A stretch of 59,500 bases of DNA from Minisyncoccia bacterium (lineage in GTDB: Bacteria; Patescibacteriota; Minisyncoccia; Phycocordibacterales; Phycocordibacteraceae), in NCBI GenBank assembly GCA_049286905.1, contig JBAQEU010000035.1:1-59500 (forward strand). Reading direction: 5' to 3'. The notes below the pieces were generated by a model. That model saw only the letters and a program-made list of their open reading frames with translations. It did not search any database and was not told the DNA's origin. The first letter of the stretch is position 1, and each line of letters begins with the position of its first letter. The position numbers were made by a program, and so were the translations under genes. Below, piece by piece: positions 1,791 to 38,783 of this stretch.

Positions 1791-3582
1791 TCACCTCTTC
1801 GTCGACGTCGATAAACCCGCCAGCCTGGATTTCCCAGAGCTTCTTGTAGAGGTTACTCTCCTGTGCGAGGAGTTCATCGTGTGTGCCCGAGAGGATAGCT
1901 TTTCCGTTTTCCATCACAATAATGCGATCCATCTTCATGACGGTCGAGAGACGGTGTGCAATCGCGATGACGGTCTTGCCCTGCATCAGTTTGGCAAGGG
2001 CGTCCTGAATAAGAGCTTCAGACTCAGAGTCGAGACTTGATGTCGCTTCATCGAGGATGAGTATCGGTGCGTTTTTGAGGATCGCGCGGGCGATAGCAAT
2101 GCGCTGGCGTTCGCCACCCGAGAGTTTGATACCGCGCTCGCCGACGAAGGTGTCATAGCCTTCTGGTAATTTCGAGATGAATTCATGGCAGTGGGCACTC
2201 TTTGCGGCCGCAATAATCTCTTCCTCGGTCGCATCTTGTTTCCCATAGCGGATGTTGTCGCGCAGAGTGCGATGAAAGAGTATCGACTCTTGCGGAACGA
2301 ACGAAATCAGTCTGCGCAAGCTTTCTTTCGTTACCTTGCTGATGTCTTGATTGTCGATAGTTATCACCCCAACACTCGGGTCATAGAGACGCAAGAGAAG
2401 TTTTGTAATGGTCGTCTTTCCTGCTCCTGAAGGGCCGACAAGCGCGACTTTTTCTCCGCCACGGATGTCGAGCGAGAAGTGATCGAGCACCGGCCGGTCA
2501 GGGGTGAAGTAGAACGAAGTGTCTCCAAACTCGATTTTGCCGTCAGTGAGTTCGAGTGCCTTCGCGCTTTCTGCGTCTTGGATGGCGTGTGGCATCTCCA
2601 TGATGTCCACCATTTCTGAAGCATCGGCGAACGCGTCGTAGAGCTGTCGAAGCGCGTTGCCCATATTCCATATCTGATCAATGAGTCCAAGTATGTACAC
2701 TTGAATCAAGACGAAATCGCCAACCGTGAGAAGGCCCTTCTGCCAGAGGAGTACGGCGCCGCCAAGAAGCCCGACCTCGACTACTATCGCGAGTGCATGC
2801 TGGATACCGTTTATCCACATGTTTGAATTCCATGATCGGAGCGTTATCGTTTGCCACGAATGCACTATTGAGCCGAGAATCGACTGTTCTGTTTTCTCTG
2901 TTGCGAAAAATGCAATAGTCGAATGGTTTCCGATTGCATCTGAGAGAGCACCGGTCATGCGGCTGTCTTCGGCCGCACGTGCGACGCGAATCGGATGTCG
3001 CCATCGTGTAAGTAATACTTGAATCGTTACGAAAAGGATGACCCAAACAAGCAGACCGAGACCGAGCCATATATTTCGTGTGTAGAGAATATAGATACTT
3101 CCCGCGGCGAAGAGGAATGTCTGAAAGAAGCTAAACACAAGGCCGTCGAACACTTGCTCATATGCTCTCGCATATCGAGTCACGCGGCGCGTGAGTGTGC
3201 CGGCGAAGTTAGAAATAAAGAAGTCGTGGCCGTGACGAATCAGGTGAGAGAAGGCAGAGTTCGTAAGGTCTGCCATCACTCGGGCCTCGATTTGCACAAT
3301 CGCAGCTATTTGGATGCGTCGAGATGTCCAATTTGCTGCACCGACACCGGCGTATACAAGCAGAACTCCGAAAAGAGAGGAAACAACGACTGAGGGAGCC
3401 TCTCCGGACGAGAGAATGTTTATGAATTCTCGTAAATACAGCGGAGCAACAACCGAGGCAATCAGGGCGCAGATTGTACCAAGCAATACGAAAGTAAGTG
3501 CGACTGGATATTTCGCAGACGCCATAAGATAAACCCGCAAAACGGGCCAGACACGAACATTTTTCTTCGGTTCTTGGGGCAT
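1786..3582 (-). CDS. ABC exporter, fused permease/ATPase (MsbA-like)
   Basis: Hydrophobic six-TM-like N-terminal half plus an NBD with Walker A GPSGAGKTT, signature LSGGERQR and Walker B ILILDEATSSLD. Start placed at ATG 3582 (MPQEPKK); the ORF-track start is 3606. Confidence 0.9.
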   Translation of the reverse strand: MPQEPKKNVRVWPVLRVYLMASAKYPVALTFVLLGTICALIASVVAPLYLREFINILSSGEAPSVVVSSLFGVLLVYAGVGAANWTSRRIQIAAIVQIEARVMADLTNSAFSHLIRHGHDFFISNFAGTLTRRVTRYARAYEQVFDGLVFSFFQTFLFAAGSIYILYTRNIWLGLGLLVWVILFVTIQVLLTRWRHPIRVARAAEDSRMTGALSDAIGNHSTIAFFATEKTEQSILGSIVHSWQTITLRSWNSNMWINGIQHALAIVVEVGLLGGAVLLWQKGLLTVGDFVLIQVYILGLIDQIWNMGNALRQLYDAFADASEMVDIMEMPHAIQDAESAKALELTDGKIEFGDTSFYFTPDRPVLDHFSLDIRGGEKVALVGPSGAGKTTITKLLLRLYDPSVGVITIDNQDISKVTKESLRRLISFVPQESILFHRTLRDNIRYGKQDATEEEIIAAAKSAHCHEFISKLPEGYDTFVGERGIKLSGGERQRIAIARAILKNAPILILDEATSSLDSESEALIQDALAKLMQGKTVIAIAHRLSTVMKMDRIIVMENGKAILSGTHDELLAQESNLYKKLWEIQAGGFIDVDEEVI

Positions 3583-9465: not shown

Positions 9466-10968
9466 TCAAGCGAACGTGGCGAGACTGATTTCTTCCATCG
9501 CTTTTGCAACCCGTGCCTTGACCGGGAATTCGCCGTTCGCGACGCGGTTCAGGGCTTCCGAGAAACCACTGGCCCCTTCGTATACCGTCCCTTCCATCTC
9601 GTTCATCACGACCGGCTGGCCGGGCAGTTGCGAGATCGAGAGCTTGGCCGCTTCGAGGTCGATACTGCCCTTCTCGCCAAGCGCGACACCAATGACCGGA
9701 ATTTCCTGGTTGCCGGTGCTGTGGATGACGGCATCCAGGATTCCAGGAAGCGCAAAGGCTTTCCCGCCAACGGCGATTACGGCATTAGCGCCCCGGCAGC
9801 CATGCGTCGCGAAGTAGAACATCTCCTTCGGGTTACGATGGCAACTCAGGACGAAGAAACTCCGTGTGTCGAGGATGCCGGAAGAGAACATGCCGTTTTC
9901 AAGTGCTTTCAGTACGGCATCCACCTTCGGGATGTCGCTCGTGCTCCCGAACACTATGGCGAGCGAGCGCTTCTTGTTTTCCACGGCGATGCCCATCACT
10001 TCGCGCTGGTACTGTTCAAGGCGCATCCCGGTTAGCCGCCAGAAAATATAGCGGTAGATCTGGGTCGTGGCCGCGATGAGCTTGGCCGGCACCTGGAGCG
10101 CCTGCACCAGTGCGATGTCTTCCGAAGACTTGGCATCGAGCTGGTCGATGCCTTGCTCCTTACCCCACTCCCGCACGAATTGCTTGTCGTACGAAGGCGG
10201 CGCTTTGCGCTTTTCGACGAGCGACCGCGATGCCCGCCATGCGGAGTGTTCCCAGAACCGGCTGGAGTCTGGAGTCAGAGCTTCGTCGGCGAGAAAGACG
10301 TTGCCGCTTTCGTCGCGTCCGAATTCGAACTTCGTGTCGGCAGTGATGATACCGCGACCCCGGGCTACCTTGCGACCGTACTCGAAGATTTCGAGCGTCA
10401 GCGCCGTCTCTTCAGGGAAATTTTCCTGCGTGAAAGCGGCGTCGACGTGCTCATCGTGGCCTTCCGCGGCTTTCGTCGTGGGGGTCGCGATTGTTTGCGG
10501 GAGCTTGTCGCCGTCCTGAAGGCCAGGCGGGAGCGAGATGCCGCAGACAGTGCCAGTTTTCAAATAACTTTTCCAGCCAGTGCCGGTCAGGTATTTGCGA
10601 GCGACGAACTCGCGGTCGGTCATTGAGAGCTTGCGTACCACCATCGCCTGCATTTGCAGTTGAGGGTTCTTCCGCAGGGCCGCAGGCAGATACGGGTCGA
10701 TAGCCGGCCCGGCCGCGACGAGGTGCGTCGGGATGCCGAGCTCTTTTTCGATACGGGTGAGCCAGAAGTGGCTCATGGCCGTGAGTATCGCGCCTTTTTC
10801 GGGCACAAGCGCATTCAACACGAAATCGAAAATGCTGATGCCGTTGGTGGCGACGATGAGCAAGAGACCGTTCGGCAGTCTGTAGGTATCGCGGACTTTG
10901 CCGCGGTTAAGCAGTTCAAGATCCGGGAGTACCGGGACGCTTTGACGCAGAGGCGAGAGTGCTGGCAT
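9466..10968 (-). CDS. purCE: bifunctional SAICAR synthetase (PurC) / PurE-like AIR carboxylase-mutase fusion
   Basis: 500 aa. The N-terminal ~330 aa are PurC-like (GKVRDTY, LLIVATNGISIFDFVL, ADTKFEFG). The C-terminal ~165 aa are PurE-like (LAIVFGSTSD, SCHRNP, VGGKAFALPG, PVIGVA). SD GGAGAA lies upstream. Confidence 0.85.
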   Translation of the reverse strand: MPALSPLRQSVPVLPDLELLNRGKVRDTYRLPNGLLLIVATNGISIFDFVLNALVPEKGAILTAMSHFWLTRIEKELGIPTHLVAAGPAIDPYLPAALRKNPQLQMQAMVVRKLSMTDREFVARKYLTGTGWKSYLKTGTVCGISLPPGLQDGDKLPQTIATPTTKAAEGHDEHVDAAFTQENFPEETALTLEIFEYGRKVARGRGIITADTKFEFGRDESGNVFLADEALTPDSSRFWEHSAWRASRSLVEKRKAPPSYDKQFVREWGKEQGIDQLDAKSSEDIALVQALQVPAKLIAATTQIYRYIFWRLTGMRLEQYQREVMGIAVENKKRSLAIVFGSTSDIPKVDAVLKALENGMFSSGILDTRSFFVLSCHRNPKEMFYFATHGCRGANAVIAVGGKAFALPGILDAVIHSTGNQEIPVIGVALGEKGSIDLEAAKLSISQLPGQPVVMNEMEGTVYEGASGFSEALNRVANGEFPVKARVAKAMEEISLATFA

Positions 10969-10997
10969 GACTGTTCTCCATATGGTTCAAGGTTCGT

Positions 10998-11040
10998 CGC
11001 TACGTGAGTGACTTGGAAGTCGGACTTCCAAGTCGTAGCG
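10998..11040 (-). promoter_or_regulatory. long hairpin in the purCE leader
   Basis: CGCTAC(bulge)GACTTGGAAGTC-G-GACTTCCAAGTCGTAGCG gives a 12-bp perfect core plus a 6-bp outer stem. It lies 30-70 nt upstream of the start. No U-run follows. Confidence 0.4.
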
Positions 11041-11076
11041 TTTGGGGAGAATCCCCTTTTCTTTACTTCCTCCGTA

Positions 11077-11105
11077 ACACTATTTCAAAACGTCAACAAA
11101 TGCAA
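11077..11105 (-). promoter_or_regulatory. promoter cassette copy 1 (TTGCAT-17 nt-TAGTGT) upstream of purCE
   Basis: The 17-nt spacer ttgttgacgttttgaaa is identical to copy 2 (11777..11805). Confidence 0.4.
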
Positions 11106-11131
11106 CAGTACGAACATCGCGACTAAAAAAC

Positions 11132-11157
11132 AAAAGGCGCCGGTCGGGGCGCCTTTT
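11132..11157 (-). terminator. intrinsic terminator AAAAGGCGCC-loop-GGCGCCTTTT (cassette copy 1)
   Basis: Perfect stem with A and T runs. It is nearly identical to 11862..11888. Confidence 0.7.
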
Positions 11158-11164
11158 AAAGACT

Positions 11165-11713
11165 TCATACATTGAAGTCAAATCTCACCACATCCATGCA
11201 CAAATCGTGAATGCATACCTGAATGAGTATGAGCTTCAGTAGATAGTCAAAAAGATTGTCACGGCCGTAGCCGTCACCAAAGTCGCGAGTTATGGCGTCG
11301 ATGGACCAATCGGGCCGAATAATAAAGCCGGCTTGTATTAGTTGGTTCTTTTCGTCGGAAGATTGTGTCTGACGCACGAACTCCCAGAAAGCGAGCGAAC
11401 ACAGTTTGGAGATAGTGCCGCGTGCCAAAGCGCCCATTACTCTACTCGCATCCGAAGCATGGCGAAAATCGCGAGGAAACAACGGGTCAGGGAGTGATTT
11501 GCAAAACATTTCGCTCAAAGCCCACAACAGTTGAAGGTCTTTGTTCACATGACCGACCTCGCGTCCTTCTTCTTTGCAGATCTCAGGTACATTTTCGGCT
11601 ATGAACTTCGCACGTCTCCCTTTGATTTGTTGTGTGTAGAGATCGGGAAACTGCACCTTCACGATCTGCAACACCCCGTTTACGAATGCTTTCTGCCGTT
11701 TCGTGCTCATCAT
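11165..11713 (-). CDS. hypothetical protein (orphan, AT-richer island)
   Basis: 182-aa ORF with SD AAGGAGA 6 nt before ATGATG, its own promoter cassette and its own terminator. No motif recognised. Confidence 0.6.
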   Translation of the reverse strand: MMSTKRQKAFVNGVLQIVKVQFPDLYTQQIKGRRAKFIAENVPEICKEEGREVGHVNKDLQLLWALSEMFCKSLPDPLFPRDFRHASDASRVMGALARGTISKLCSLAFWEFVRQTQSSDEKNQLIQAGFIIRPDWSIDAITRDFGDGYGRDNLFDYLLKLILIQVCIHDLCMDVVRFDFNV

Positions 11714-11776
11714 TGATCTCCTTCTTGAAGGTGCATCTGTTACGGGACAATTCCCATTTCTATATCTCTGGCCGCA

Positions 11777-11805
11777 ATGCTATTTCAAAACGTCAACAAA
11801 CGCAA
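11777..11805 (-). promoter_or_regulatory. promoter cassette copy 2 (TTGCGT-17 nt-TAGCAT)
   Basis: The 21-nt core ctatttcaaaacgtcaacaaa is identical to 11080..11100. Confidence 0.45.
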
Positions 11806-11806
11806 C

Positions 11807-11827
11807 TACATAGGGTTATCCTATGTA
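11807..11827. repeat. 21-nt palindrome TACATAGGGTTATCCTATGTA (copy 2 of 2)
   Basis: It differs from 6821..6841 at one central base. It abuts the -35 of promoter cassette 2. Confidence 0.6.
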
Positions 11828-11861
11828 TCTAGGGACTTACGATGTCCCTAAAATATAAAAC

Positions 11862-11888
11862 AAAAGGCGCCGGGTCAGGGCGCCTTTT
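11862..11888 (-). terminator. intrinsic terminator AAAAGGCGCC-loop-GGCGCCTTTT (cassette copy 2)
   Basis: Same stem as 11132..11157. It lies 3' of the 111-aa gene. Confidence 0.7.
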
Positions 11889-11902
11889 GGCGAATGCGAG
11901 AT

Positions 11903-12238
11903 TCAGACTTCCAGAGCGGGCCGAACGAATTTAGTGCCGCGACTCATTTCCAAGTCCAAGATGGATTCGACAAGGACGCCTGGTACACGCTCCCACCAGC
12001 CGTGGGAAGAGTCGTACACGTCATTTGTCTCTAGCCTGTCGCCGACTATCAGAATCATTCCGAAAATCGTTTGTTCCCGATCCATCTTGTGCGCATGATG
12101 GATGTTGTGTCGGGCCGAGGGGTCGATGTCTGGGACATCGGTTTGTGCAGTTTGTGCGCTTTGCATGGTGTCGCCTTTCCATTCCAAGTTGTCGCTATGA
12201 GAATCATAGCGTTTGGGGCCAATCCCCATGTGGTTCAT
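11903..12238 (-). CDS. hypothetical protein (orphan, AT-richer island)
   Basis: The track ORF 11903..12247 begins with TTG. The first ATG (MNHMGIG) is at 12238, 8 nt after a TAGCAT box. His/Asp-rich, with no motif recognised. Confidence 0.5.
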   Translation of the reverse strand: MNHMGIGPKRYDSHSDNLEWKGDTMQSAQTAQTDVPDIDPSARHNIHHAHKMDREQTIFGMILIVGDRLETNDVYDSSHGWWERVPGVLVESILDLEMSRGTKFVRPALEV

Positions 12239-12246
12239 CTGCGGCA

Positions 12247-12275
12247 ATGCTATTTGATGTGGTGAACAAAAGCAA
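12247..12275 (-). promoter_or_regulatory. promoter cassette copy 3, diverged (TTGCTT-17 nt-TAGCAT)
   Basis: It shares gcaatgctattt...aacaaa with copy 2. Confidence 0.35.
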
Positions 12276-12359
12276 ACCTATATGTAACAAGGTCGAACTT
12301 TGCTTCAGAACAAAAGCAGATGCGGAAGGATTTTTTTAGTCGCTAAAATCCAAAAGAGA

Positions 12360-12368
12360 TGTGGATAA
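12360..12368 (-). promoter_or_regulatory. perfect DnaA box (TTATCCACA on the minus strand)
   Basis: The plus strand reads TGTGGATAA, in non-coding DNA 131 nt upstream of the anomalous tRNA. Confidence 0.55.
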
Positions 12369-12390
12369 CGAATAAAAACACTCTTGCGTG

Positions 12391-12399
12391 TGCTATACT
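12391..12399 (+). promoter_or_regulatory. extended -10 promoter TGcTATACT
   Basis: The plus strand reads gtgTGCTATACTttg. There is no good -35. Confidence 0.4.
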
Positions 12400-12405
12400 T
12401 TGTGG

Positions 12406-12466
12406 TAAAGGCACGAGAGAATCTCCTTGTAGAAGAACTCGTTAGCCACTGACGAGTTCTTTTTTG
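12406..12466 (+). ncRNA. candidate ~60-nt small RNA or tRNA leader
   Basis: It is bounded by the extended -10 (12391..12399) and a canonical terminator: AGAACTCGT-tagccactg-ACGAGTTCT followed by TTTTT (12434..12466). No meaningful ORF lies inside. Confidence 0.3.
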
Positions 12467-12498
12467 TTGAGTGACAAACAGTTTTGGGGCCAATTGGG

Positions 12499-12585
12499 GC
12501 CGCCGTGGTGGAATTGGTAGACACAGTAGTTTTCCAAATTACCTTCCTAGCGGGAATACGAGTTCGAATCTCGTCGGCGGCACCA
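12499..12585 (+). tRNA. class II (Leu-type body) tRNA with anticodon loop TTTCCAA, i.e. anticodon UCC; CCA encoded
   Basis: Manual cloverleaf. Acceptor GCCGCCG/CGGCGGC. D arm GTG-GAATTGGTAGA-CAC. Anticodon arm GTAGT-TTTCCAA-ATTAC. 15-nt variable arm CTTCCTAGCGGGAAT. T arm ACGAG-TTCGAAT-CTCGT, then A73 and CCA. Confidence 0.75.
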
Positions 12586-12662
12586 ATTGTTCCCAAAACT
12601 ATCAATCACCTAATTTATTATAGCGGCAGCTCGCCATGACTAGCATGTATTGCACGCAAAAA

Positions 12663-12671
12663 TGTGGATAA
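12663..12671 (-). promoter_or_regulatory. perfect DnaA box (TTATCCACA on the minus strand)
   Basis: The plus strand reads TGTGGATAA, 78 nt downstream of the tRNA. It is followed by the inverted repeat TTGACAtaacttTGTCAA. Confidence 0.55.
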
Positions 12672-12726
12672 CTTAACTTGCAGTATTGTAAGCTGTTGAC
12701 ATAACTTTGTCAAATTACGTTCTTTG

Positions 12727-12998
12727 ATTCCGATAATGGCCGTCTCGGAAGAATAAATCTTGGTGCTAGAAAACCTCTATTGCTAGACAACAGGGCATGC
12801 GAAGTCTTTCGTATGTGCCATGATTTATTAGCTAACCCGATTGTTTATGTCTAAACAAAAACACGTCGTTCATCGCGACAGTGAGACTGGGCAGTTCGTT
12901 ACTGAAAGGTACGCGGACCGACACCCTAAGACCACTGAGCGTGAGATAGTGCCGTAAGGCATGATGGTTGCCCCTTCAGGGGCGGCCATTATCGGAAT
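12727..12998. repeat. perfect 16-bp inverted repeats (ATTCCGATAATGGCCG / CGGCCATTATCGGAAT) enclosing 240 nt
   Basis: The arms are at 12727..12742 and 12983..12998. The interior holds a 36-codon ORF and several local hairpins. Confidence 0.6.
12847..12957 (+). CDS. possible 36-aa basic peptide MSKQKHVVHRDSETGQFVTERYADRHPKTTEREIVP
   Basis: ATG...TAA read by eye; too short for the ORF track. No SD. From memory it resembles widespread tiny proteins of the type ..SG.FVT..YA..HP.TT... Confidence 0.3.
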   Translation: MSKQKHVVHRDSETGQFVTERYADRHPKTTEREIVP

Positions 12999-13029
12999 TA
13001 AATTAAAACCACTGGTCTGAAGTTGAACT

Positions 13030-13971
13030 TTAAACAGATATTTTTTCTTTTTTGATTAAATTCTCAATTTTGTGATAGGCGTGTACTATCGTCGTATGAT
13101 CTCTTCCGCCCAGTATCGCTCCTATCCTCGGGAAAGAAAGTCGAAGTTTCTTGCGCATTAAATACATTGCTATATGGCGTGGGAATACAAGATGAGCTCT
13201 TCTGCTTTTCCCCACCAATTCTTCGTTGGATATCCCATAAGTTAAACAGACACTGGAAATAAGATTTTGAACGGCTACTTCGCTATAGGGAGCGAGTTTA
13301 CGCATTTTTTTAACTTCAATATGGACAGGAGTCACTACAGGATGGATAAGGGTTGCTACGGGCGCGGCAAGAACCTTCAATAAAGCTCCGTTTAAGAGTT
13401 GGCGGATACGTTCTCTTGTAAGTCCGTATTTTTTTGCAATTGTGTCGTAAGTCCGACCTTGAAATCTGAGAGTTAATATTTCATTTTCTCTTTCTGTAAT
13501 TTGATTAGTGTTTGATTGGTGATGTTTTATAACTCCATCGCTTTGTTTTTCAATCAGACCGAAGAACTGATCGGTGACTGAGAATTCGGTTAGAGAAATA
13601 ATTTCTACCCCATCTTTATAAACTTCCTGCATTTCATTTTCAAAGTCCTTCGTCCTTATTTGCCGAAGTAAATCATGCAGAACTTTGTTTCTTTTTGTTC
13701 GATACCGATCCAATAAACTTTTCTTTTCACTCGGAAGCCATCCACAGGAAATTAAGAACTTAGTAAGTTCGTTCAAGCTATAGTTGTCAGTCTTAGTTTT
13801 TAAAGACTGTATTACTTTTGGCTCGGATGTCTTTATTGAAATTCTCAATTTAATATCCGCGAACAGTTTTATTAGACTCTCAATATAAGCACTTTGTAAT
13901 ACAAAAGCCTCGAGAATATTTCCTTCATCTCGGTACCTCTCTATCCTACCCATTAGTTCATCTTTTTTCAT
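13030..13971 (-). CDS. DNA-binding protein: unknown N-terminal domain + sigma-70 region-4-like HTH + DnaA domain IV-like C-terminus
   Basis: 313 aa, markedly AT-rich. Residues ~158-200 (ITERENEILTLRFQGRTYDTIAKKYGLTRERIRQLL) are r4/LuxR-like. Residues ~235-305 (ISSVCLTYGIS..LVGKSRRAHLVFPRHIAMYLMRK..LSFPRIGAILGGRDHTTIVHAYHKI) match the DnaA C-terminal DNA-binding signature. Confidence 0.8.
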   Translation of the reverse strand: MKKDELMGRIERYRDEGNILEAFVLQSAYIESLIKLFADIKLRISIKTSEPKVIQSLKTKTDNYSLNELTKFLISCGWLPSEKKSLLDRYRTKRNKVLHDLLRQIRTKDFENEMQEVYKDGVEIISLTEFSVTDQFFGLIEKQSDGVIKHHQSNTNQITERENEILTLRFQGRTYDTIAKKYGLTRERIRQLLNGALLKVLAAPVATLIHPVVTPVHIEVKKMRKLAPYSEVAVQNLISSVCLTYGISNEELVGKSRRAHLVFPRHIAMYLMRKKLRLSFPRIGAILGGRDHTTIVHAYHKIENLIKKEKISV

Positions 13972-13991
13972 TAATCTTTATTCAAACAAAC

Positions 13992-14017
13992 AAAAACCGC
14001 CCATGGGGACGGTTTTT
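13992..14017 (-). terminator. intrinsic terminator after rpsI
   Basis: AAAAACCGCCC-atg-GGGaCGGTTTTT hairpin with a T-run on the minus strand. Confidence 0.6.
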
Positions 14018-14025
14018 GTAAGTGC

Positions 14026-27108: not shown

Positions 27109-27777
27109 TTACAGCCAGTTTATGGGAGTTTCTCCGTGCGCGATGAGATAGTCATTCGTCTTACTGAAGTGTTTGCAACCGAAGAAGCCGGAGGCGGCAG
27201 AAAACGGCGACGGGTGCGGTGCTTCGAGCACGAGATGCTTGGTGCGGTCTATGTGAGCGCCTTTTGCTCTAGCATAGTTTCCCCACAACAGAAAGACGAG
27301 ATTCTCCCGTTCATTTGAAAGCCTGTGGATAACCTCGTCGGTGAACTGTTCCCACCCACGGTCCTGGTGCGAGCCAGCCGTGTGCGCACGAACGGTAAGC
27401 GTGGCGTTCAGAAGCAAGACGCCCTGCTCTGCCCACCGTGAGAGGTCACCATCGGTGTGCGTGAGCGGCTTCCCCAAGTCGCTCTCAATTTCTTTGAAGA
27501 TGTTTTGTAGAGATGGTGGTATTTTTGTGTGCTCGTCTACAGCAAATGCGAGACCGTTGGCCTGTCCGTCGCCGTGGTAGGGGTCCTGTCCGAGTATCAC
27601 CACCTTTACCTTGTCGAAAGGACACAGGTCGAAAGCGCGAAAGATGTTTTTCGGCGCAGGGTACACTGCGCCGTCTCGGTACTCTTTCTTAACGAATGAG
27701 GTGAGTTCTTTGAAATATTCTTTCTCAGATTCCCCCGAGAGGTGCTCTTTCCATGACGGTTCTATCTTCACGTTCAT
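27109..27777 (-). CDS. ung: uracil-DNA glycosylase, family 1
   Basis: 222 aa with the GQDPYHG water-activating motif and the HPSPFSA leucine-loop region. Confidence 0.95.
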   Translation of the reverse strand: MNVKIEPSWKEHLSGESEKEYFKELTSFVKKEYRDGAVYPAPKNIFRAFDLCPFDKVKVVILGQDPYHGDGQANGLAFAVDEHTKIPPSLQNIFKEIESDLGKPLTHTDGDLSRWAEQGVLLLNATLTVRAHTAGSHQDRGWEQFTDEVIHRLSNERENLVFLLWGNYARAKGAHIDRTKHLVLEAPHPSPFSAASGFFGCKHFSKTNDYLIAHGETPINWL

Positions 27778-35380: not shown

Positions 35381-38300
35381 TTATACCACAAGATTCAGAA
35401 TCTTGCCCGGTACGTAGATGACCCGTTTTGGCTCATTCCCGCCCATGGCCGCAACGACAGCCGAGAGCGCCCGCGCCGCCGTGATAGCCGTCTCTTCTGA
35501 GGCATCGACTGGAATCGTAATCGACCCGCGGCGCTTGCCGTTCACTTGTACCGTAACTTCTTGCTCAGCAGAAACCACGAACACGGTCTCCGGCCAGGAC
35601 TGTGCGTGCACACTTCCCTCTCCGCCGAGCTTCTCCCAGAGGTGCTCGGCCAGGTGCGGTGCAAACGGTGCAAGCATAATGACAAGAGACGAGAGCGCCT
35701 GAAGAGACACTTCTTCTGCGGCCTCGAGATCGTTCATAAGTATCATGAGTGCCGCCACTCCGGTGTTGAACTTGAACCGGTCGCCATCCTCGGCTATCTT
35801 CGCGCTCGCCCGAGCGATGGATTGCTGTATCTTCTCTGACACTCCATTTGATGGTTCGAGCGCTACATTCGCGGAATGCTTCGTAGCGAGGCGAGAGACG
35901 CGGTCGAGGAACTTATACATCGAGGCGACGCCGTCGAGATTCCACGGATAGCTTCCCGGCTCGTTATAGGGGCCGATGAAGGCCAGATAGAGACGCACCG
36001 CATCGGCACCGTATTTCTGCACGAACTCGTCGGGATTCACGACATTCCCCTTCGACTTGCTCATCTTCGTGCCGTCAGGACCCATGATGAGACCGCGGTT
36101 GAAGCGCTCAGTGAACGGCTCGTCTACCGGCACGAGCGCGAGGTCGTAGAGCGCTTTCATGAAGAATCGCGCATAGAGGAGGTGCATGGTCGTGTGCTCG
36201 CTCCCGCCCGAGTAACGGTTAATCGGCAACCACTTCTTCATGAGCGCCGCATCGGAGAACTTATGTGCGTCCTTCGGATCGAGGTAGCGGAGGAAGTACC
36301 ACGATGAATCAACAAACGTGTCGAACGTATCGTATTCCGGCGTCCAACCCTCGCCAAAGATACGCGTTACACGCTCGCGAAGCTCTTCAGAGGACGCGAG
36401 CGGTGCCTTCCCTGTCGGAGTGAAGTCAACATCGGTCGGCAAGACCCACGGCAAGTGTTCCGCAGGAACCGTATGCGGATGCCCTTCTGGGTCGTACACA
36501 ATCGGTATCGGGCAACCCCAATACCGCTGGCGGCTTATGAGCCAATCGCGGATGCGATACTGCGTCGTCTTCTCACCACCCACGCTTGCGACGATGTCCC
36601 ACTTCGCCTCAAGATTTCCTCTGCCGGTAAACTCACCTGAGTTCGCAAGGACTCCATCACCTGTGTAGATATCGTTTTCAAACAGCGCGACGACTGTCTG
36701 GTGGGATAGAGGGGTCAGGAACTTCTTGAGTTCGGCGAGCGAGAGCCACTTGAGCACATGCTTCTTCTCCTCGTCTGGAGCGACCTCAGTATGATCGCCA
36801 TCCTGAAGCTCCACATAGAAGGCCGGCGCATGCCCGAAGCGATTAGCGTTTTTCGGTACATGAAAATATTTCCCGTGCACGGAACCGAGTGACCTCACGA
36901 TACGCGCATGAGTGTATCCGGTCTCTTCGGTAATCTCCTTCAGAGCGGTCGCCTCAGGAGTCATCCCCTCGTCGATACTCCCGGTGAGCAGCGTTCCCCA
37001 ATCAGGAGCATCATTCCACCCGAGCGCCAGATATTTCTCTTCTGACCAGTGCTTGAGAAGGACTATCACGCCACTATGATCGACATAGGGCTCGTCCGCC
37101 TTGAAAGCGGATGAACCGACAGTCTGTACGAGAGAAGGCTCGATGACTCGCCGGATAGGAAGATTATATTTCCTCGCGAACTCATAGTCGCGCTCGTCGT
37201 GCGCAGGGACAGCCATGAGCGAGCCGGTGCCGTACGAAGCGAGGACGAAGTCGGCGACGAAAGCGGGTATCTCTTCTTTGGTCGCAGGGTTCACCACCCT
37301 GACACCATCAAGCTTCACGCCGGTCTTCTCTTTGTTCTCGCTGCGCTCACGTTCGGTCTTCTTGGTCGTCGCAGTGATATAGTCCTGCACTTCTTTCTTA
37401 TTTGAAACAGAGTCGAGGAGTACCGCGACAAGCGGGTGCTCCGGTGCGAGGACTACGCAAGTCGCACCAAAGACCGTATCAGGTCGCGTGGTAAAGACTT
37501 TTACTTTCTCGTCGTGACCAGAGATAGACATGTCGAGATTCTCCAAAACGTCAGGTTCTTCTTTCCCGGTATAATGTTCTCTCTTGGATGTTCCTGTGAC
37601 AAGTCTGGCGTCGAGGTTCGCGGCCATCTTTTCCAAGTAGACAATCCGACTCTCCTCCTTGAGATCTGAAAGTATGAGACGTTTAGATGCCAGCTTTCTT
37701 AGTGCTTCAAAATCAAATTTCCATGAGAATGTGGTGTGGAAATTTTTATCTTCATCGCTATGCTCTGGATCTTTTGCGGCGGCAACAAGTATAAGTTCGC
37801 GAATAGGCTTACCGTGCTTTATCAGTGCTTTCATCGCCACTATCGCGCCTAGGCTGTGCCCAATGAGGACAGTGTTTTCATCCATTCGACAATTTTCTAG
37901 CACATAGGCGACTTGATCCTTTTCTGTCGGGCTGTTGGTATCCGGCAGTTGTGGTGCCTGTACCTCATATCCTTTGCTCTCCAATATTTCTTTAAGCCAT
38001 GGGATGAAGTTTTTGTCAGCACGGCCAGTCCAGCCATGCAAAATTATGAAGTTAGGTTTTCCTTTTTGCACAATCGGGAACTCGAGGTGCGCGCCTTCGC
38101 TTTTGCCGATCCACGCCCGTTGAGCCTCTTTTATCTCCTCGCGCCACGGGAGCGCGTTCAGTCCATCGAGCAATCGCTCCGCATAGTCAGTAATCTTGAA
38201 GAACCATTGGGTGAGTCGCTTCTCCTCTATCGCCGTGCCGCACCGCTCACAGCAGCCGTCGATGACCTGCTCGTTAGCGAGCACGGTCTGGTCTTTGGGA

Positions 38301-38773
38301 CACCACTTCACTGCCGCCTCGCGGCGCTCGGCGAGCTTGTGCTCGAAGAGCTTCGTGAAGAGCCATTGCGTCCACTGATAGTAGTCGGCATCGCACGCGA
38401 CGACTTCTTTGCTCCAGTCGAATGACGCACCCATGCTCTTCAGCTGGCCGCGCATGCGCTCGATATTCTTATAGGTCCACTCTTTCGGGTCGACGCCGTT
38501 CTTGATAGCCGCGTTCTCAGCTGGAAGACCGAACGCGTCGAACCCTATCGGGAAGAGCACGTTCTTCCCGCGCATGCGGAGCAGACGCGCATAGATGTCG
38601 GTCACCGCAAAGGCGTACCAGTGGCCGATGTGGAGATCGCCGGACGGGTACGGGAACTCGACGAGGAGGTAATACGGGTCTTTCGACTCGTCCGAGAGGT
38701 CTGCGCGGTAGAGATCGAGCCCTGACCACTTCTCCTGAGCCTTCTTCTCTATGTCGCGATGATCGTATGCCAT
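35381..38773 (-). CDS. leuS: leucyl-tRNA synthetase with two large inserted domains (alpha/beta hydrolase-like and Nudix-like)
   Basis: HIGH (DLHIGH), the editing TTRPDT and AVPAHDERDYEFA motifs, RDWLISRQRYWG, and KMSKS are all present. At 1,130 aa from ATG 38773 it is far longer than typical LeuRS. The extra segments are at about 37514..38071 (ILHGW...GHSLG) and 36674..37138 (Nudix box GSIDEGMTPEATALKEITEETGY). Confidence 0.93.
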   Translation of the reverse strand: MAYDHRDIEKKAQEKWSGLDLYRADLSDESKDPYYLLVEFPYPSGDLHIGHWYAFAVTDIYARLLRMRGKNVLFPIGFDAFGLPAENAAIKNGVDPKEWTYKNIERMRGQLKSMGASFDWSKEVVACDADYYQWTQWLFTKLFEHKLAERREAAVKWCPKDQTVLANEQVIDGCCERCGTAIEEKRLTQWFFKITDYAERLLDGLNALPWREEIKEAQRAWIGKSEGAHLEFPIVQKGKPNFIILHGWTGRADKNFIPWLKEILESKGYEVQAPQLPDTNSPTEKDQVAYVLENCRMDENTVLIGHSLGAIVAMKALIKHGKPIRELILVAAAKDPEHSDEDKNFHTTFSWKFDFEALRKLASKRLILSDLKEESRIVYLEKMAANLDARLVTGTSKREHYTGKEEPDVLENLDMSISGHDEKVKVFTTRPDTVFGATCVVLAPEHPLVAVLLDSVSNKKEVQDYITATTKKTERERSENKEKTGVKLDGVRVVNPATKEEIPAFVADFVLASYGTGSLMAVPAHDERDYEFARKYNLPIRRVIEPSLVQTVGSSAFKADEPYVDHSGVIVLLKHWSEEKYLALGWNDAPDWGTLLTGSIDEGMTPEATALKEITEETGYTHARIVRSLGSVHGKYFHVPKNANRFGHAPAFYVELQDGDHTEVAPDEEKKHVLKWLSLAELKKFLTPLSHQTVVALFENDIYTGDGVLANSGEFTGRGNLEAKWDIVASVGGEKTTQYRIRDWLISRQRYWGCPIPIVYDPEGHPHTVPAEHLPWVLPTDVDFTPTGKAPLASSEELRERVTRIFGEGWTPEYDTFDTFVDSSWYFLRYLDPKDAHKFSDAALMKKWLPINRYSGGSEHTTMHLLYARFFMKALYDLALVPVDEPFTERFNRGLIMGPDGTKMSKSKGNVVNPDEFVQKYGADAVRLYLAFIGPYNEPGSYPWNLDGVASMYKFLDRVSRLATKHSANVALEPSNGVSEKIQQSIARASAKIAEDGDRFKFNTGVAALMILMNDLEAAEEVSLQALSSLVIMLAPFAPHLAEHLWEKLGGEGSVHAQSWPETVFVVSAEQEVTVQVNGKRRGSITIPVDASEETAITAARALSAVVAAMGGNEPKRVIYVPGKILNLVV

Positions 38774-38783
38774 GGAACGAACC

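What the first reader, a model, noticed from the sequence alone, without database searches (positions are those of the whole stretch)
12499..12585. Class II tRNA with a Leu-type body and a glycine (UCC) anticodon
Read directly from the sequence, this is an 87-nt tRNA. It has a flawless 7-bp acceptor stem and a 3-bp D stem with the D loop GAATTGGTAGA typical of tRNA-Leu. It also has a 15-nt variable arm, a TTCGAAT T loop, discriminator A73 and an encoded CCA.

The anticodon arm GTAGT-TTTCCAA-ATTAC places UCC at positions 34-36. The loop differs from a Leu-UAA loop (TTTAAAA) only at positions 35-36.

Established knowledge: bacterial LeuRS recognises A73 and the D-loop/tertiary core, not the anticodon. 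GlyRS wants U73 and a class I body. Inference: if expressed and matured, this tRNA would most plausibly be leucylated and would read GGA/GGG glycine codons, producing deliberate mistranslation. Alternatively it has a non-translational or mobile-element-derived role.

It lies in AT-rich non-coding DNA between two perfect DnaA boxes. Unlike tRNA-Tyr and tRNA-Ala in this window, it has no -10 box 9 nt upstream; instead it sits 33 nt after a terminator hairpin. The same window also encodes an aberrant LeuRS. The link between the two is speculative.
Basis: partly seen in the sequence, partly recalled or inferred. Interest (0 to 1): 0.8.

Follow-up and report, generated by a model that had tools for sequence, protein, structure and literature searches.

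The report
Leucine-type tRNA carrying a glycine anticodon
A small piece of imported DNA in an uncultured bacterium carries an intact tRNA gene built like a leucine tRNA but reading glycine codons, and similar genes recur on viruses and other mobile DNA, so they may insert the wrong amino acid on purpose.

Summary
Window 12499..12585(+) is an intact 87-nt class II tRNA with anticodon UCC (ARAGORN; Rfam 55.2 bits). With the anticodon masked, it scores as tRNA-Leu: 43 bits, against none for Ser, 0.3 for Tyr and 15 for Gly. It carries every known bacterial leucine identity element.

It is not a one-off or an error. Pattern scans found 24 distinct Leu-type tRNA(UCC) genes in metagenomes, viral contigs and one genome. 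Their covariation is strong (97.6% of cells paired; 20 of 23 pairs show double changes). A73 is kept in 22 of 22 scorable copies.

The gene lies in a roughly 3-kb low-GC island between rpsI and purCE that two relatives lack. It sits inside a 370-bp module that is 80-82% identical in two other contigs, where the module is next to a large serine recombinase and an AbiU2 gene.

GGA and GGG still encode conserved glycines in this genome. The most likely reading (about 0.4) is therefore a mobile-element tRNA that is leucylated and would decode GGA/GGG as leucine. Its expression appears gated by an upstream terminator, a leader-trailer duplex and a conserved antisense promoter. Charging and expression are untested. 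No link to the unusual LeuRS is supported.

The parts
12499..12585 (+). Class II tRNA gene with a tRNA-Leu-type body, A73 and an encoded CCA
   Evidence: ARAGORN. Rfam 55.2 bits. Leu profile 43.0 bits against none for Ser, 0.3 for Tyr and 15.3 for Gly. Positions 7-26 are identical to E. coli leuU.
12533..12535 (+). Anticodon TCC (UCC, reads GGA/GGG) in the loop TTTCCAA (12531..12537)
   Evidence: The same loop is present in relatives L033 and L035.
12471..12498 (+). 5' leader arm that pairs with the 3' trailer
   Evidence: 35-nt inverted repeat I1. The fold of 12460..12620 gives -61.6 kcal/mol, z = -6.8, extending the acceptor stem by 7 + 10 bp. Leader-trailer duplex energy is -27.4 kcal/mol; the 5th percentile of 805 other tRNAs is -17.3.
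12583..12609 (+). 3' trailer arm, including the encoded CCA, that pairs with the leader
   Evidence: The trailer ACCAATTGTTCCCAAAACTA is invariant in the window, L033 and L035.
12431..12469 (+). Intrinsic-terminator-like hairpin (15-bp stem) and U run, between an upstream -10-like box and the tRNA
   Evidence: (I9). Conserved in L035.
12391..12399 (+). Extended -10-like box TGCTATACT, sharing the CTATACT sequence with the -10 box in front of the host tRNA-Tyr
   Evidence: Sequence reading. The simple sigma-70 scan does not call it, so this is an inference.
12360..12368 (+). Perfect DnaA box upstream of the module's plus-strand -10-like box
   Evidence: Conserved in L035.
12663..12671 (+). Perfect DnaA box just downstream of the antisense promoter's -10
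   Evidence: Conserved in L033 and L035.
12685..12713 (-). Sigma-70-type promoter TTGACA-17-TACAAT (11 of 12 matches) reading antisense across the tRNA toward orf114 and orf182
   Evidence: Both hexamers and the spacing are conserved in L033 and L035.
12350..12720 (.). Conserved 370-bp tRNA(UCC) module
   Evidence: 80% identical to L035 103-452 and 82% identical to L033 1-339, with different neighbouring genes in each contig.
10969..14025 (.). Low-GC island of about 3.05 kb inserted between purCE and rpsI
   Evidence: Relatives L023 and L024 have rpsI-[155-208 bp]-purCE with no tRNA in the gap. GC is 32-52% here, against about 55% for the genome. The junctions are identical in NCBI contig JBAQNX010000011.1.
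13030..13971 (-). Island gene for a 313-aa protein with Sigma70_r4 and DnaA C-terminal (DnaA-box-binding) domains and no AAA+ domain
   Evidence: Pfam 1.3e-10 and 8.6e-25. About 13 homologues share this architecture.
11903..12247 (-). Island ORF of 114 aa, function unknown, downstream of the antisense promoter
   Evidence: No hit in Pfam, PHROGs, PADLOC or NCBIfam.
11165..11713 (-). Island ORF of 182 aa, function unknown
   Evidence: No hit in Pfam, PHROGs, PADLOC or NCBIfam.
35381..38848 (-). The window's bacterial-type LeuRS, presumed housekeeping and the presumed charging enzyme; it is not part of the island
   Evidence: Aligns along the whole of T. thermophilus LeuRS 1h3n. HIGH and KMSKS motifs are present. 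Extra alpha/beta-hydrolase (261-442) and NUDIX (571-727) domains flank the editing domain.

Best explanation
This is a genuine, structurally intact tRNA gene that descends from tRNA-Leu. It keeps leucine identity but carries the glycine anticodon UCC. It is cargo on a small horizontally acquired island in a Minisyncoccia (CPR) genome. It also belongs to a recurrent class of Leu-type tRNA(UCC) genes found on phages, islands and insertion-sequence-rich DNA.

Proposed mechanism:
1. The precursor is made at a low or conditional level. Three features would limit it: an intrinsic terminator between the only plausible upstream -10 box and the tRNA; a 17-bp leader-trailer duplex that buries the RNase P site and the CCA end; and a conserved strong convergent promoter making antisense RNA. 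Both promoters sit next to DnaA boxes.
2. Once matured, the tRNA is charged by the host's bacterial-type LeuRS, which ignores the anticodon.
3. It then decodes GGA/GGG as leucine, in competition with the normal tRNA-Gly.

What is shown: the tRNA call, the Leu-type body, the family with covariation, the island and module mobility, and the standard meaning of GGA/GGG in this genome.

What is inferred: expression, processing, leucylation, ribosomal use and the biological purpose. That purpose could be a harmful or proteome-diversifying effector serving the mobile element.
For: - The tRNA call and its anticodon are reproduced by two methods.
- Leu identity: the masked-anticodon Leu profile gives 43.0 bits (true Leu range 34-69), with none for Ser, 0.3 for Tyr and 15.3 for Gly. 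The D arm is identical to E. coli leuU. All BLAST hits are tRNA-Leu. The published Leu determinants A73, A15:U48 and G18G19 are present, and LeuRS does not read the anticodon (PMC9976931).
- Family: 24 distinct Leu-type UCC tRNAs. 97.6% of cells are paired against 66.7% in shuffles, 20 of 23 pairs show double changes, and slid controls give 37-52%.
- A73 and U48 were not part of the search pattern. U48 is invariant in all 24 aligned sequences, and A73 is present in all 22 scorable copies. The Gly elements that were not in the pattern are not kept: U73 never occurs, C2-G71 in 8 of 24, G3-C70 in 9 of 24.
- Internal control: Leu-like class II tRNAs with GUU carry G73 (4 of 4) and the one with GUG carries C73. 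The discriminator therefore does change when identity changes.
- The closest relatives, L033 and L035, keep UUUCCAA while showing three compensatory pair swaps. Their flanks are about 20% diverged.
- Mobile context: the island is absent from syntenic relatives. The module lies beside a large serine recombinase and HEPN_AbiU2. Other subfamilies lie beside IS1595 or IS1-like transposases, a methylase, RhuM, or in IMG/VR contigs.
- Several other subfamilies have proximal promoter-like TTGACA-17/18-TAATAT boxes and hairpins directly after the tRNA, so the class looks expressed.
- GGA/GGG make up 29% of host Gly codons and encode invariant glycines (DnaK DLGTT, AtpA GRGQ), so Leu insertion there would be missense.
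- The LeuRS has intact HIGH and KMSKS motifs, an editing domain and a C-terminal domain.
- Precedent: nematode nev-tRNA-Gly (class II, A73) is leucylated and not glycylated in vitro (PMC3333845).
- Gating elements.
Against: - There are no expression, processing or charging data.
- In this copy the only -10-like box is about 100 nt upstream and is followed by a strong terminator. The leader-trailer duplex and the antisense promoter could simply mean that the gene is silent.
- CPR bacteria are reported to use the archaeal-type GlyRS, for which the discriminator matters less. This tRNA has G1-C72, C2-G71, C35, C36, G10, U16 and C50-G64, which are T. thermophilus GlyRS elements. Glycylation or dual charging is therefore possible.
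- In C. elegans, no nev-tRNA-driven mistranslation was detected in the proteome (PMC4300185).
- The family was collected with a pattern that required the Leu D loop and UCC. Conservation of those two features across the family is therefore not independent evidence.
- The rest of the genome's tRNA set could not be inspected.
Confidence: 0.4

Rival explanations
1. It is a working glycine tRNA in an unusual class II body. The host's archaeal-type GlyRS would recognise C35, C36 and the first acceptor pairs and charge it with glycine. The tRNA would then supply extra GGA decoding for AT-rich mobile-element genes. Alternatively it has dual identity and is charged by both GlyRS and LeuRS.
For: - CPR bacteria are reported to carry uniformly the archaeal-type GlyRS.
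- The window tRNA has G1-C72, C2-G71, C35, C36, G10, U16 and C50-G64, matching published Gly elements that include those of T. thermophilus. A. pernix GlyRS does not need position 73.
- The low-GC island gene at 13030..13971 uses GGA for 7 of its 14 glycines, against 14% in host genes.
- Some Leu-like class II phage tRNAs have acquired the discriminator that matches their anticodon: Asn with G73 and His with C73. Class II bodies can therefore be recruited to other identities.
Against: - A73 is kept in 22 of 22 scorable family members, including one in a Reyranella MAG contig (L010). U73 never occurs.
- C2-G71 is kept in only 8 of 24 and G3-C70 in 9 of 24.
- The relatives L033 and L035 lost C50-G64.
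- The Gly profile score is 15.3 bits, against a median of 43.6 for true Gly.
- The nev-tRNA-Gly precedent, from a host whose GlyRS is of the type found in archaea and eukarya, was not glycylated.
- Bacterial DTD is reported to spare Gly-tRNA-Gly because of U73. A Gly-tRNA with A73 might therefore be deacylated.
Confidence: 0.2
2. It is a tRNA-shaped element with a non-translational job for the mobile element. It could be a processing or stability signal, a regulatory or antisense target, a decoy for tRNA-directed nucleases, or part of a DnaA-box-flanked replication or regulatory region. In that case the anticodon has no decoding role.
For: - The tRNA is embedded in a conserved 370-bp module with two DnaA boxes, a leader-trailer stalk and a convergent promoter.
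- Neighbours include a DnaA-C/sigma-r4 DNA-binding protein and, in L035, a HEPN AbiU2 gene.
- In four other family members (L008, L010, L047, L050) the tRNA is followed within 20-30 nt by a conserved coiled-coil plus winged-helix ORF, as if it were a 5' processing element of an mRNA.
- Another subfamily has a conserved 100-nt 3' extension.
- Allo-tRNA(UAU) relics have been proposed to be linked to transposons or toxin-antitoxin systems (PMC7609411).
Against: - Every feature needed for translation is kept across 24 diverged copies: the 7/5 cloverleaf, the U33 and A37 loop, the T loop, A73, and an encoded CCA in several. A mere processing signal or decoy would not need all of these.
- No known non-translational tRNA-like family matched in Rfam.
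Confidence: 0.18
3. It is an intact but effectively silent passenger. It would be a tRNA-Leu paralogue whose anticodon drifted and which is tolerated because it is hardly expressed, with no selected function in this genome.
For: - There is no promoter next to the gene. A strong terminator lies just upstream, and antisense transcription is likely.
- The island has no recombinase of its own and looks like a remnant.
- The nematode counterparts cause no detectable mistranslation.
Against: - Three compensatory stem changes and an unchanged anticodon loop separate it from L033 and L035, whose flanks are about 20% diverged.
- Family-wide covariation is strong.
- Other subfamilies have strong proximal promoter-like boxes.
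- Reaching UCC from any Leu anticodon needs at least two substitutions (inference from the Leu anticodons NAA/NAG; the Leu reference set is), yet UCC recurs in many lineages.
Confidence: 0.18
4. It is an assembly or sequencing artefact: a mis-called CC in a normal tRNA-Leu(UAA), or a chimeric contig.
For: The genome is a metagenome-assembled one, and read data were not available here.
Against: - The same sequence and both island junctions occur in a second public contig.
- Independent JGI metagenome contigs L033 and L035 have the identical anticodon loop.
- Twenty-four distinct relatives exist.
Confidence: 0.02

Closest known systems
nev-tRNAs: nematode-specific V-arm tRNAs with Gly(CCC) or Ile(UAU) anticodons (PMC3333845, PMC4300185)
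   Same: Both are class II, tRNA-Leu-like bodies with a glycine anticodon. A73 is strictly conserved. The nematode tRNAs are predicted, and shown in vitro, to be leucylated and not glycylated. Both are conserved even though they would breach the genetic code.
   Different: The nev-tRNAs are eukaryotic nuclear genes restricted to nematodes. The gene here is in a bacterial (CPR) genome, on a mobile island, with relatives in phage contigs and insertion-sequence contexts. The anticodon is UCC rather than CCC. Recognition here would follow bacterial LeuRS rules (D loop and elbow) rather than the V-arm tip. A dedicated regulatory module (terminator, stalk, antisense promoter, DnaA boxes) is present.
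allo-tRNAs (Mukai et al. 2017, reviewed in PMC7609411)
   Same: Both are bacterial or metagenomic class II tRNAs whose anticodons do not match their aminoacylation identity. Both are candidate natural missense or nonsense suppressors, sometimes linked to transposons or toxin-antitoxin loci.
   Different: Allo-tRNAs have 8/4 or 9/3 acceptor/T-stem geometry and serine (or alanine) identity. This tRNA has the standard 7/5 geometry and leucine identity.
The tRNA-ProX / ProRSx mistranslation system of Streptomyces (PMC10404621, reviewed in PMC11415595)
   Same: Both are naturally encoded bacterial tRNAs whose body identity and anticodon disagree, proposed to cause regulated mistranslation.
   Different: That system uses a class I tRNA-Pro body and a dedicated synthetase paralogue encoded alongside it. 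Here there is no dedicated synthetase. The LeuRS is the only one in the window, looks like the housekeeping enzyme and is unlinked.
Ordinary phage- or island-borne tRNA genes and phage suppressor tRNAs
   Same: It is carried by a mobile element. Relatives in viral contigs have proximal promoter-like boxes and hairpins directly after the gene.
   Different: Typical mobile-element tRNAs are cognate (body matches anticodon) or read stop codons. This one pairs a Leu body with a sense anticodon for a different amino acid.

Membership tests
Bacterial tRNA-Leu (class II, LeuRS substrate) | Long variable arm (class II) with the standard 7/5 acceptor/T geometry | tested here: met
   A 15-nt variable region with a 4-5 bp stem, a 7-bp acceptor stem and a 5-bp T stem.
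Bacterial tRNA-Leu (class II, LeuRS substrate) | Discriminator A73 | tested here: met
   A at 12582. A73 is present in 22 of 22 scorable family members.
Bacterial tRNA-Leu (class II, LeuRS substrate) | Leu-type D arm (3-bp stem; loop with A14, A15, G18G19 and the extra A) and the A15:U48 pair | tested here: met
   Positions 7-26 are identical to E. coli leuU, and U is the last variable-region base. U48 is invariant in 24 of 24. The determinants are as listed in PMC9976931.
Bacterial tRNA-Leu (class II, LeuRS substrate) | Overall sequence profile of tRNA-Leu, with the anticodon masked | tested here: met
   43.0 bits against a profile of 38 tRNA-Leu sequences (true members 34-69), with none for Ser and 0.3 for Tyr.
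Bacterial tRNA-Leu (class II, LeuRS substrate) | Leucine anticodon (NAA or NAG, with A35) | tested here: not met
   The anticodon is UCC.
Bacterial tRNA-Leu (class II, LeuRS substrate) | Aminoacylation with leucine by LeuRS | not testable with these tools
   This needs a charging assay. The window's LeuRS has intact catalytic, editing and C-terminal parts.
Bacterial tRNA-Gly | Anticodon NCC (C35, C36) | tested here: met
   UCC.
Bacterial tRNA-Gly | Class I body with a 4-5 nt variable loop, and the tRNA-Gly sequence profile | tested here: not met
   The variable arm is 15 nt. The Gly profile gives 15.3 bits, against a median of 43.6 for true Gly; non-Gly sets reach 22.
Bacterial tRNA-Gly | Discriminator U73 | tested here: not met
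   A73. The rule is taken from PMC9976931. It may be relaxed for the archaeal-type GlyRS reported in CPR bacteria.
Bacterial tRNA-Gly | Acceptor pairs G1-C72, C2-G71 and G3-C70 | tested here: inconclusive
   G1-C72 and C2-G71 are present, but 3:70 is C-G. Across the family, C2-G71 occurs in 8 of 24 and G3-C70 in 9 of 24.
nev-tRNA (nematode V-arm tRNAs) | Class II Leu-like body with a non-Leu, non-Ser anticodon and conserved A73 | tested here: met
   compared with PMC3333845.
nev-tRNA (nematode V-arm tRNAs) | Nematode nuclear gene family | tested here: not met
   The source is a Minisyncoccia MAG. Relatives are in metagenome and viral contigs.
allo-tRNA | 8/4 or 9/3 acceptor/T-stem geometry with Ser identity (G73) | tested here: not met
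   The geometry is 7/5 and the discriminator is A73. The Ser profile gives no hit.
tRNA-ProX-type system (mismatched tRNA plus a dedicated synthetase paralogue) | A co-encoded dedicated aaRS paralogue next to the tRNA | tested here: not met
   The island holds no aaRS. The LeuRS is 23 kb away in the core genome and is full length.
Mobile-element-borne tRNA | Located in horizontally acquired or mobile DNA | tested here: met
   The island is absent from syntenic relatives and has low GC. The module is shared with recombinase and Abi contigs.

The most novel reading that the evidence does not exclude
Leu-type tRNA(UCC) genes are the RNA effector of a previously unrecognised kind of mobile-element module. 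In this reading, a deliberately mis-decoding ('toxic') tRNA is kept off by a cis-encoded terminator, a leader-trailer stalk, antisense RNA and a DNA-binding partner. The partner here would be a DnaA-box reader; elsewhere it would be a coiled-coil plus winged-helix protein. When released, the tRNA would flood the proteome with Gly-to-Leu errors. That could serve plasmid-addiction-like stabilisation, abortive infection or host takeover. In effect it would be a toxin-antitoxin or defence system whose toxin is a tRNA.
Probability: 0.15. Interest if true: 0.9.

Novelty: new variant of a known kind. Interest (0 to 1): 0.64.

Why it matters
Natural tRNAs whose charging identity and anticodon disagree are rare, and each case has changed ideas about how rigid the genetic code is. 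Examples are the nematode nev-tRNAs, the allo-tRNAs and the Streptomyces tRNA-ProX system.

This finding suggests a bacterial and phage counterpart of the nematode case: leucine-identity tRNAs reading glycine codons. They are spread across many lineages and are carried by mobile DNA. I found no description of such tRNAs in the searchable literature.

If these tRNAs are charged with leucine and used in translation, mobile elements would have a way to mistranslate host or rival proteomes on demand. The 24 natural variants would also give a ready set of sequences for direct testing, and possibly for engineering missense-decoding tRNAs. If they are instead glycylated, they would show that a GlyRS accepts a class II body, which would also be new.

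Tried and rejected
1. Alternative register or a different anticodon. The covariance model and ARAGORN both place UCC in a 7-nt loop.
2. Ser or Tyr identity. There is no Ser profile hit, the Tyr score is 0.3 bits, and A73 with C2-G71 argues against SerRS.
3. Codon reassignment of GGA/GGG to Leu. These codons encode invariant glycines in DnaK and in the ATP synthase subunits.
4. Native tRNA gene at a conserved locus. Two syntenic relatives have only 155-208 bp and no tRNA at this position.
5. Functional link to the odd LeuRS. It is unlinked, full length and outside the island.
6. The DnaA-C/sigma-r4 protein as a dedicated partner of the tRNA. Its homologues in L020 and L021 sit beside ordinary tRNA-Gln and tRNA-Lys, without DnaA boxes.
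7. Anticodon-agnostic searches for the module in viral contigs found nothing. Whether close relatives with other anticodons exist could therefore not be tested.
8. Island ORFs orf114 and orf182 have no family in Pfam, PHROGs, PADLOC or NCBIfam, and no match in any fetched locus.
9. A weak Rfam hit to a plant microRNA family on the antisense strand (24.9 bits against a gathering score of 120) merely reflects the long hairpin.
10. Most non-tRNA pattern hits were coding-sequence coincidences. Two were tRNA-Leu 5' halves interrupted after CUU.
11. Literature searches found no description of bacterial or phage Leu-body tRNAs with Gly anticodons.
Full report

Yes. ARAGORN finds three tRNAs in the window. 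One is at exactly 12499..12585(+), 87 nt long, with anticodon tcc at position 35. Rfam's tRNA model matches 12499..12582 at 55.2 bits (gathering score 29, E = 3.4e-9) and aligns UUUCCAA as the anticodon loop with top posterior probability. The two housekeeping tRNAs in the window score 66.6 and 52.8 bits, so this gene is as tRNA-like as they are.

- a perfect 7-bp acceptor stem;
- a 3-bp D stem with loop GAAUUGGUAGA;
- the anticodon arm GUAGU-UUUCCAA-AUUAC;
- a 15-nt variable arm;
- the T loop UUCGAAU;
- A73 and an encoded CCA.

The context claims also hold. Perfect DnaA boxes lie at 12360..12368 and 12663..12671, and the window has 4 boxes where 0.15 are expected. A strong hairpin with a U run lies just upstream. 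There is no -10 box adjacent to the gene, unlike tRNA-Tyr and tRNA-Ala.

**2. Is the body really leucine-type?**

tRNAscan-SE was not available, so I built a substitute. ARAGORN was run on all fetched loci, and its calls were sorted by anticodon into reference sets of 38 distinct class II tRNA-Leu, 30 tRNA-Ser, 27 tRNA-Tyr and 35 class I tRNA-Gly. The anticodon was masked and profile HMMs were built from each set.

The window tRNA scores 43.0 bits with the Leu profile, where true Leu members score 34-69. It gets no hit with Ser, 0.3 bits with Tyr and 15.3 bits with Gly. True Gly has a median of 43.6 bits, and non-Gly sets reach 22.

BLAST against 5,426 E. coli genomes and 50,697 phage records returns only annotated tRNA-Leu genes. 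Positions 7-26 are identical to E. coli leuU, and the variable arm has the same length and ends in the same U48.

According to the identity review PMC9976931, E. coli LeuRS needs A73, the A15:U48 pair, G18G19, a D-loop adenine and the D/T-loop tertiary pairs. It does not need the anticodon or the variable arm. C2-G71 blocks SerRS. All of these are present in this tRNA.

The LeuRS in the window aligns over the whole length of T. thermophilus LeuRS. HIGH and KMSKS are intact. Its two extra domains, an alpha/beta-hydrolase at 261-442 and a NUDIX domain at 571-727, flank the editing domain.

**3. Is it a one-off?**

No. I scanned for a Leu-type D arm followed by a YUUCCA loop, with these results:
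- 4 class II tRNA(UCC) genes in IMG/VR viral contigs;
- 1 in 185,579 species-representative genomes, on a short Reyranella MAG contig;
- 26 in JGI metagenome contigs.

Together with the window copy, 24 distinct sequences were aligned. On that alignment, 97.6% of cells form standard pairs, against 66.7% in shuffles. Twenty of 23 pairs show compensatory double changes. Sliding the 3' partners drops pairing to 37-52%. These are therefore selected, folded tRNAs and not decaying copies.

The search pattern fixed the D loop and the anticodon, so those two features are not independent evidence. A73 and U48 were not in the pattern. U48 is invariant in all 24, and A73 is present in all 22 scorable copies. 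The glycine acceptor elements are not kept: U73 never occurs, C2-G71 occurs in 8 of 24, and G3-C70 in 9 of 24.

There is also an internal control. Leu-like class II tRNAs from viral contigs that carry the Asn anticodon GUU have G73 (4 of 4), and the one with the His anticodon GUG has C73. These are the cognate discriminators for Asn and His. The discriminator does therefore change when identity changes. In the UCC tRNAs it has not.

**4. Where does the window copy sit?**

The source is an NCBI metagenome-assembled genome labelled 'Minisyncoccia bacterium' (CPR/Patescibacteria). The nearest relatives with usable contigs have a PurC-PurE fusion protein 61-63% identical to the window's. They show the gene order rpoA-rplQ-rplM-rpsI-[155-208 bp]-purCE-grpE-dnaK, with no tRNA in the gap.

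The window has about 3.05 kb extra at that point (10969..14025). Its GC content is 32-52%, in a genome of about 55%. The extra DNA holds:
- a 313-aa Sigma70_r4 plus DnaA-C-terminal-domain protein;
- the tRNA;
- two ORFs with no known family.

Both junctions are identical in a second public contig.

The tRNA lies in a 370-bp module (about 12350..12720) that is 80-82% identical to parts of two metagenome contigs, L035 and L033. Their tRNAs differ from the window's by three compensatory pair swaps: 4:69 G-C to C-G, 29:41 A-U to G-C, and 50:64 C-G to U-A. The loop UUUCCAA and the ACCA end are unchanged.

In those contigs the module sits next to a large serine recombinase and, in L035, next to a HEPN_AbiU2 gene. 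That recombinase family is very common in Parcubacteria-type genomes, with 4,382 hits at E below 1e-80. In the islands I fetched, its 3' end overlaps a tRNA-Glu gene, and the islands carry defence-type cargo such as HEPN_AbiV and SocA_Panacea.

Other UCC subfamilies lie beside IS1595 or IS1-like transposases, a cytosine methylase or RhuM, or in AT-rich phage-like contigs.

**5. Anatomy of the module**

Reading 5' to 3' on the plus strand:
- a DnaA box (12360..12368);
- an extended -10-like TGCTATACT (12391..12399), which shares CTATACT with the -10 box in front of the host tRNA-Tyr;
- a leader of about 60 nt ending in a 15-bp hairpin plus a U run (12431..12469);
- a 5' leader (12471..12498) that pairs with the 3' trailer (12583..12609), including the encoded CCA, and so extends the acceptor stem by 7 + 10 bp;
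- the second DnaA box (12663..12671);
- overlapping it on the minus strand, a TTGACA-17-TACAAT promoter (11 of 12 matches; 12713..12685) that reads antisense across the tRNA toward orf114 and orf182.

The fold of the stalked precursor gives -61.6 kcal/mol with z = -6.8. The leader-trailer duplex is -27.4 kcal/mol, where the 5th percentile of 805 other tRNAs is -17.3.

The hairpin, the stalk, both DnaA boxes and both promoter hexamers are conserved in L035, and in L033 as far as that contig reaches. An unrelated UCC subfamily, L061, has a similar long stalk.

I read these features as devices that keep the tRNA off or conditional. That reading is an inference.

Several other subfamilies have textbook promoter-like boxes (TTGACA-17/18-TAATAT) ending about 8 nt before the tRNA, and some have hairpins directly after it. 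The class as a whole therefore looks expressed.

**6. What would it do?**

GGA and GGG make up 29% of glycine codons in 33 host genes (322 of 1,127). They encode invariant glycines, for example in DnaK DLGTT and AtpA GRGQ. The code is therefore standard in this genome. A leucylated tRNA(UCC) would produce Gly-to-Leu missense errors in competition with the normal tRNA-Gly.

The closest precedent is the nematode nev-tRNA-Gly(CCC). It is class II, has a conserved A73, and was leucylated but not glycylated in vitro (PMC3333845). It nonetheless produced no detectable mistranslation in vivo (PMC4300185).

The main caveat concerns GlyRS. CPR bacteria are reported to use the archaeal-type GlyRS (bioRxiv 10.1101/2023.05.29.542759). 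This tRNA has G1-C72, C2-G71, C35, C36, G10, U16 and C50-G64, which are elements used by T. thermophilus GlyRS. Glycylation or dual charging therefore cannot be excluded for this host.

I assign these probabilities:
- gated Leu-charged missense decoder: about 0.40;
- Gly-accepting or dual-identity tRNA: about 0.20;
- non-translational tRNA-like element: about 0.18;
- silent passenger: about 0.18;
- artefact: about 0.02.

**7. Comparison with what is known, and novelty**

It works like a nev-tRNA but cannot be a member of that family, which is nematode-specific. It is not an allo-tRNA, because its geometry is 7/5 and it has A73 and Leu identity. It is not a tRNA-ProX-type system, because no dedicated synthetase is encoded alongside it.

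Searches of the held literature, including recent reviews of mistranslating and non-canonical tRNAs, found no description of bacterial or phage Leu-body tRNAs with glycine anticodons. I rate it a new variant of a known kind, the known kind being natural tRNAs whose identity and anticodon disagree.

Its interest lies in three points: the recurrence across lineages, the carriage on mobile elements, and the regulatory module around the gene. Its weakness is that expression and charging are entirely untested.

Noticed in passing
window 35381..38848 (-): The 1155-aa LeuRS has an alpha/beta-hydrolase domain (residues about 261-442) and a NUDIX domain (about 571-727) inserted on either side of the CP1 editing domain. 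It otherwise aligns end to end with T. thermophilus LeuRS, with HIGH and KMSKS intact. Whether relatives share these insertions was not checked.
   Followed up: partly
window 13030..13971 (-); L020 6001-6918; L021 3795-4745: This is a protein family joining a helical N-terminal region, sigma-70 region 4 and the DnaA box-binding domain IV, with no AAA+ module. About 13 homologues (33-48% identity) occur in CPR-like contigs. In L020 and L021 the gene follows an ordinary tRNA-Gln or tRNA-Lys. In the window its GC content is only about 35%.
   Followed up: partly
window 11033..11157, 11772..11888, 12204..12276, 13986..14017: Repeated cassette-like 3' modules follow each island ORF. They comprise a 35-nt repeat D1 in three copies, a GC-rich terminator hairpin D2 in three copies (one of which is the rpsI terminator), and a 24-nt repeat D5 in two copies. 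Their meaning is unknown.
   Followed up: no
window 12723..12751 and 12974..13002; L033 about 225-250 and 539-576: A 29-nt inverted repeat (86% complementary) brackets 222 bp just downstream of the tRNA module. The right arm is 87% identical to sequence immediately upstream of the serine recombinase gene in L033. It could be a recombination site or a small mobile unit.
   Followed up: no
viral loci L065-L183 (e.g. L152, L108, L128, L101, L134, L114, L103, L174): Many viral contigs carry class II tRNAs with a Leu-type D arm and non-Leu anticodons: GUU (with G73), GUG (with C73), GUC, UGG, GCC, UGC (A73 and no G3:U70), CGC, UGU, CUA and UUA. There are also class I-length tRNAs (Glu UUC in 20 copies, Gln, His) with the same GAAYUGGYAGA loop.
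   Followed up: partly
viral loci L162, L163, L164, L079, L080, L094, L096, L104, L133, L140, L141, L143: Twelve class II tRNAs (91-96 nt) with the anticodon UAU turned up unselected in viral contigs. Their Leu, Ser and Tyr profile scores are ambiguous. UAU is also the second major nev-tRNA anticodon and the commonest allo-tRNA anticodon.
   Followed up: no
L008 1102-1488, L010 (ORF starting 21 nt after the tRNA), L047, L050; L046 6934-7299; L049 7018-7785, L058 240-1004, L053 6258-7001: In several UCC subfamilies the tRNA is linked to an uncharacterised coiled-coil plus winged-helix protein of 122-256 aa. The ORF is either 20-30 nt downstream with its own ribosome-binding site, 40 nt upstream, or divergent about 230 nt away. 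Only sub-threshold MCM4_WHD and HARE-HTH hits were found. It may be a dedicated partner or regulator.
   Followed up: partly
L049, L058, L052, L053, L038, L027, L029 (about 100 nt after the tRNA): The 'GTCG' UCC subfamily has a conserved 3' extension containing GGTTGGAARCCAYCTG, followed by a terminator-like hairpin. This suggests a longer structured transcript.
   Followed up: no
L184 7006-8614, L185, L186, L187, L188: CPR large serine recombinase genes (65-91% identical to those next to the tRNA module) overlap a tRNA-Glu gene on the opposite strand by about 40 nt at their 3' ends. The adjacent islands carry HEPN_AbiV and SocA_Panacea genes. This looks like a widespread tRNA-Glu-targeting island family in Parcubacteria.
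   Followed up: partly
L016 (Brevundimonas diminuta chromosome) 950-980; L003 5652-5682: These are tRNA-Leu 5' halves that match through the anticodon stem and then diverge right after CUU. They may be intron-interrupted tRNA-Leu(UAA) genes or integration scars. ARAGORN does not call them.
   Followed up: no
window 9466..10968 (-): A fused SAICAR synthetase (PurC) plus AIR carboxylase (PurE) protein of 500 aa. The fusion is common in Patescibacteria, with over 400 homologues at E below 1e-60.
   Followed up: partly
window 2811..2819 (-) and 27324..27332 (+): Two further perfect DnaA boxes lie elsewhere in the window. The total is 4 where 0.15 are expected. No dnaA gene or oriC-like cluster was looked for.
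   Followed up: no
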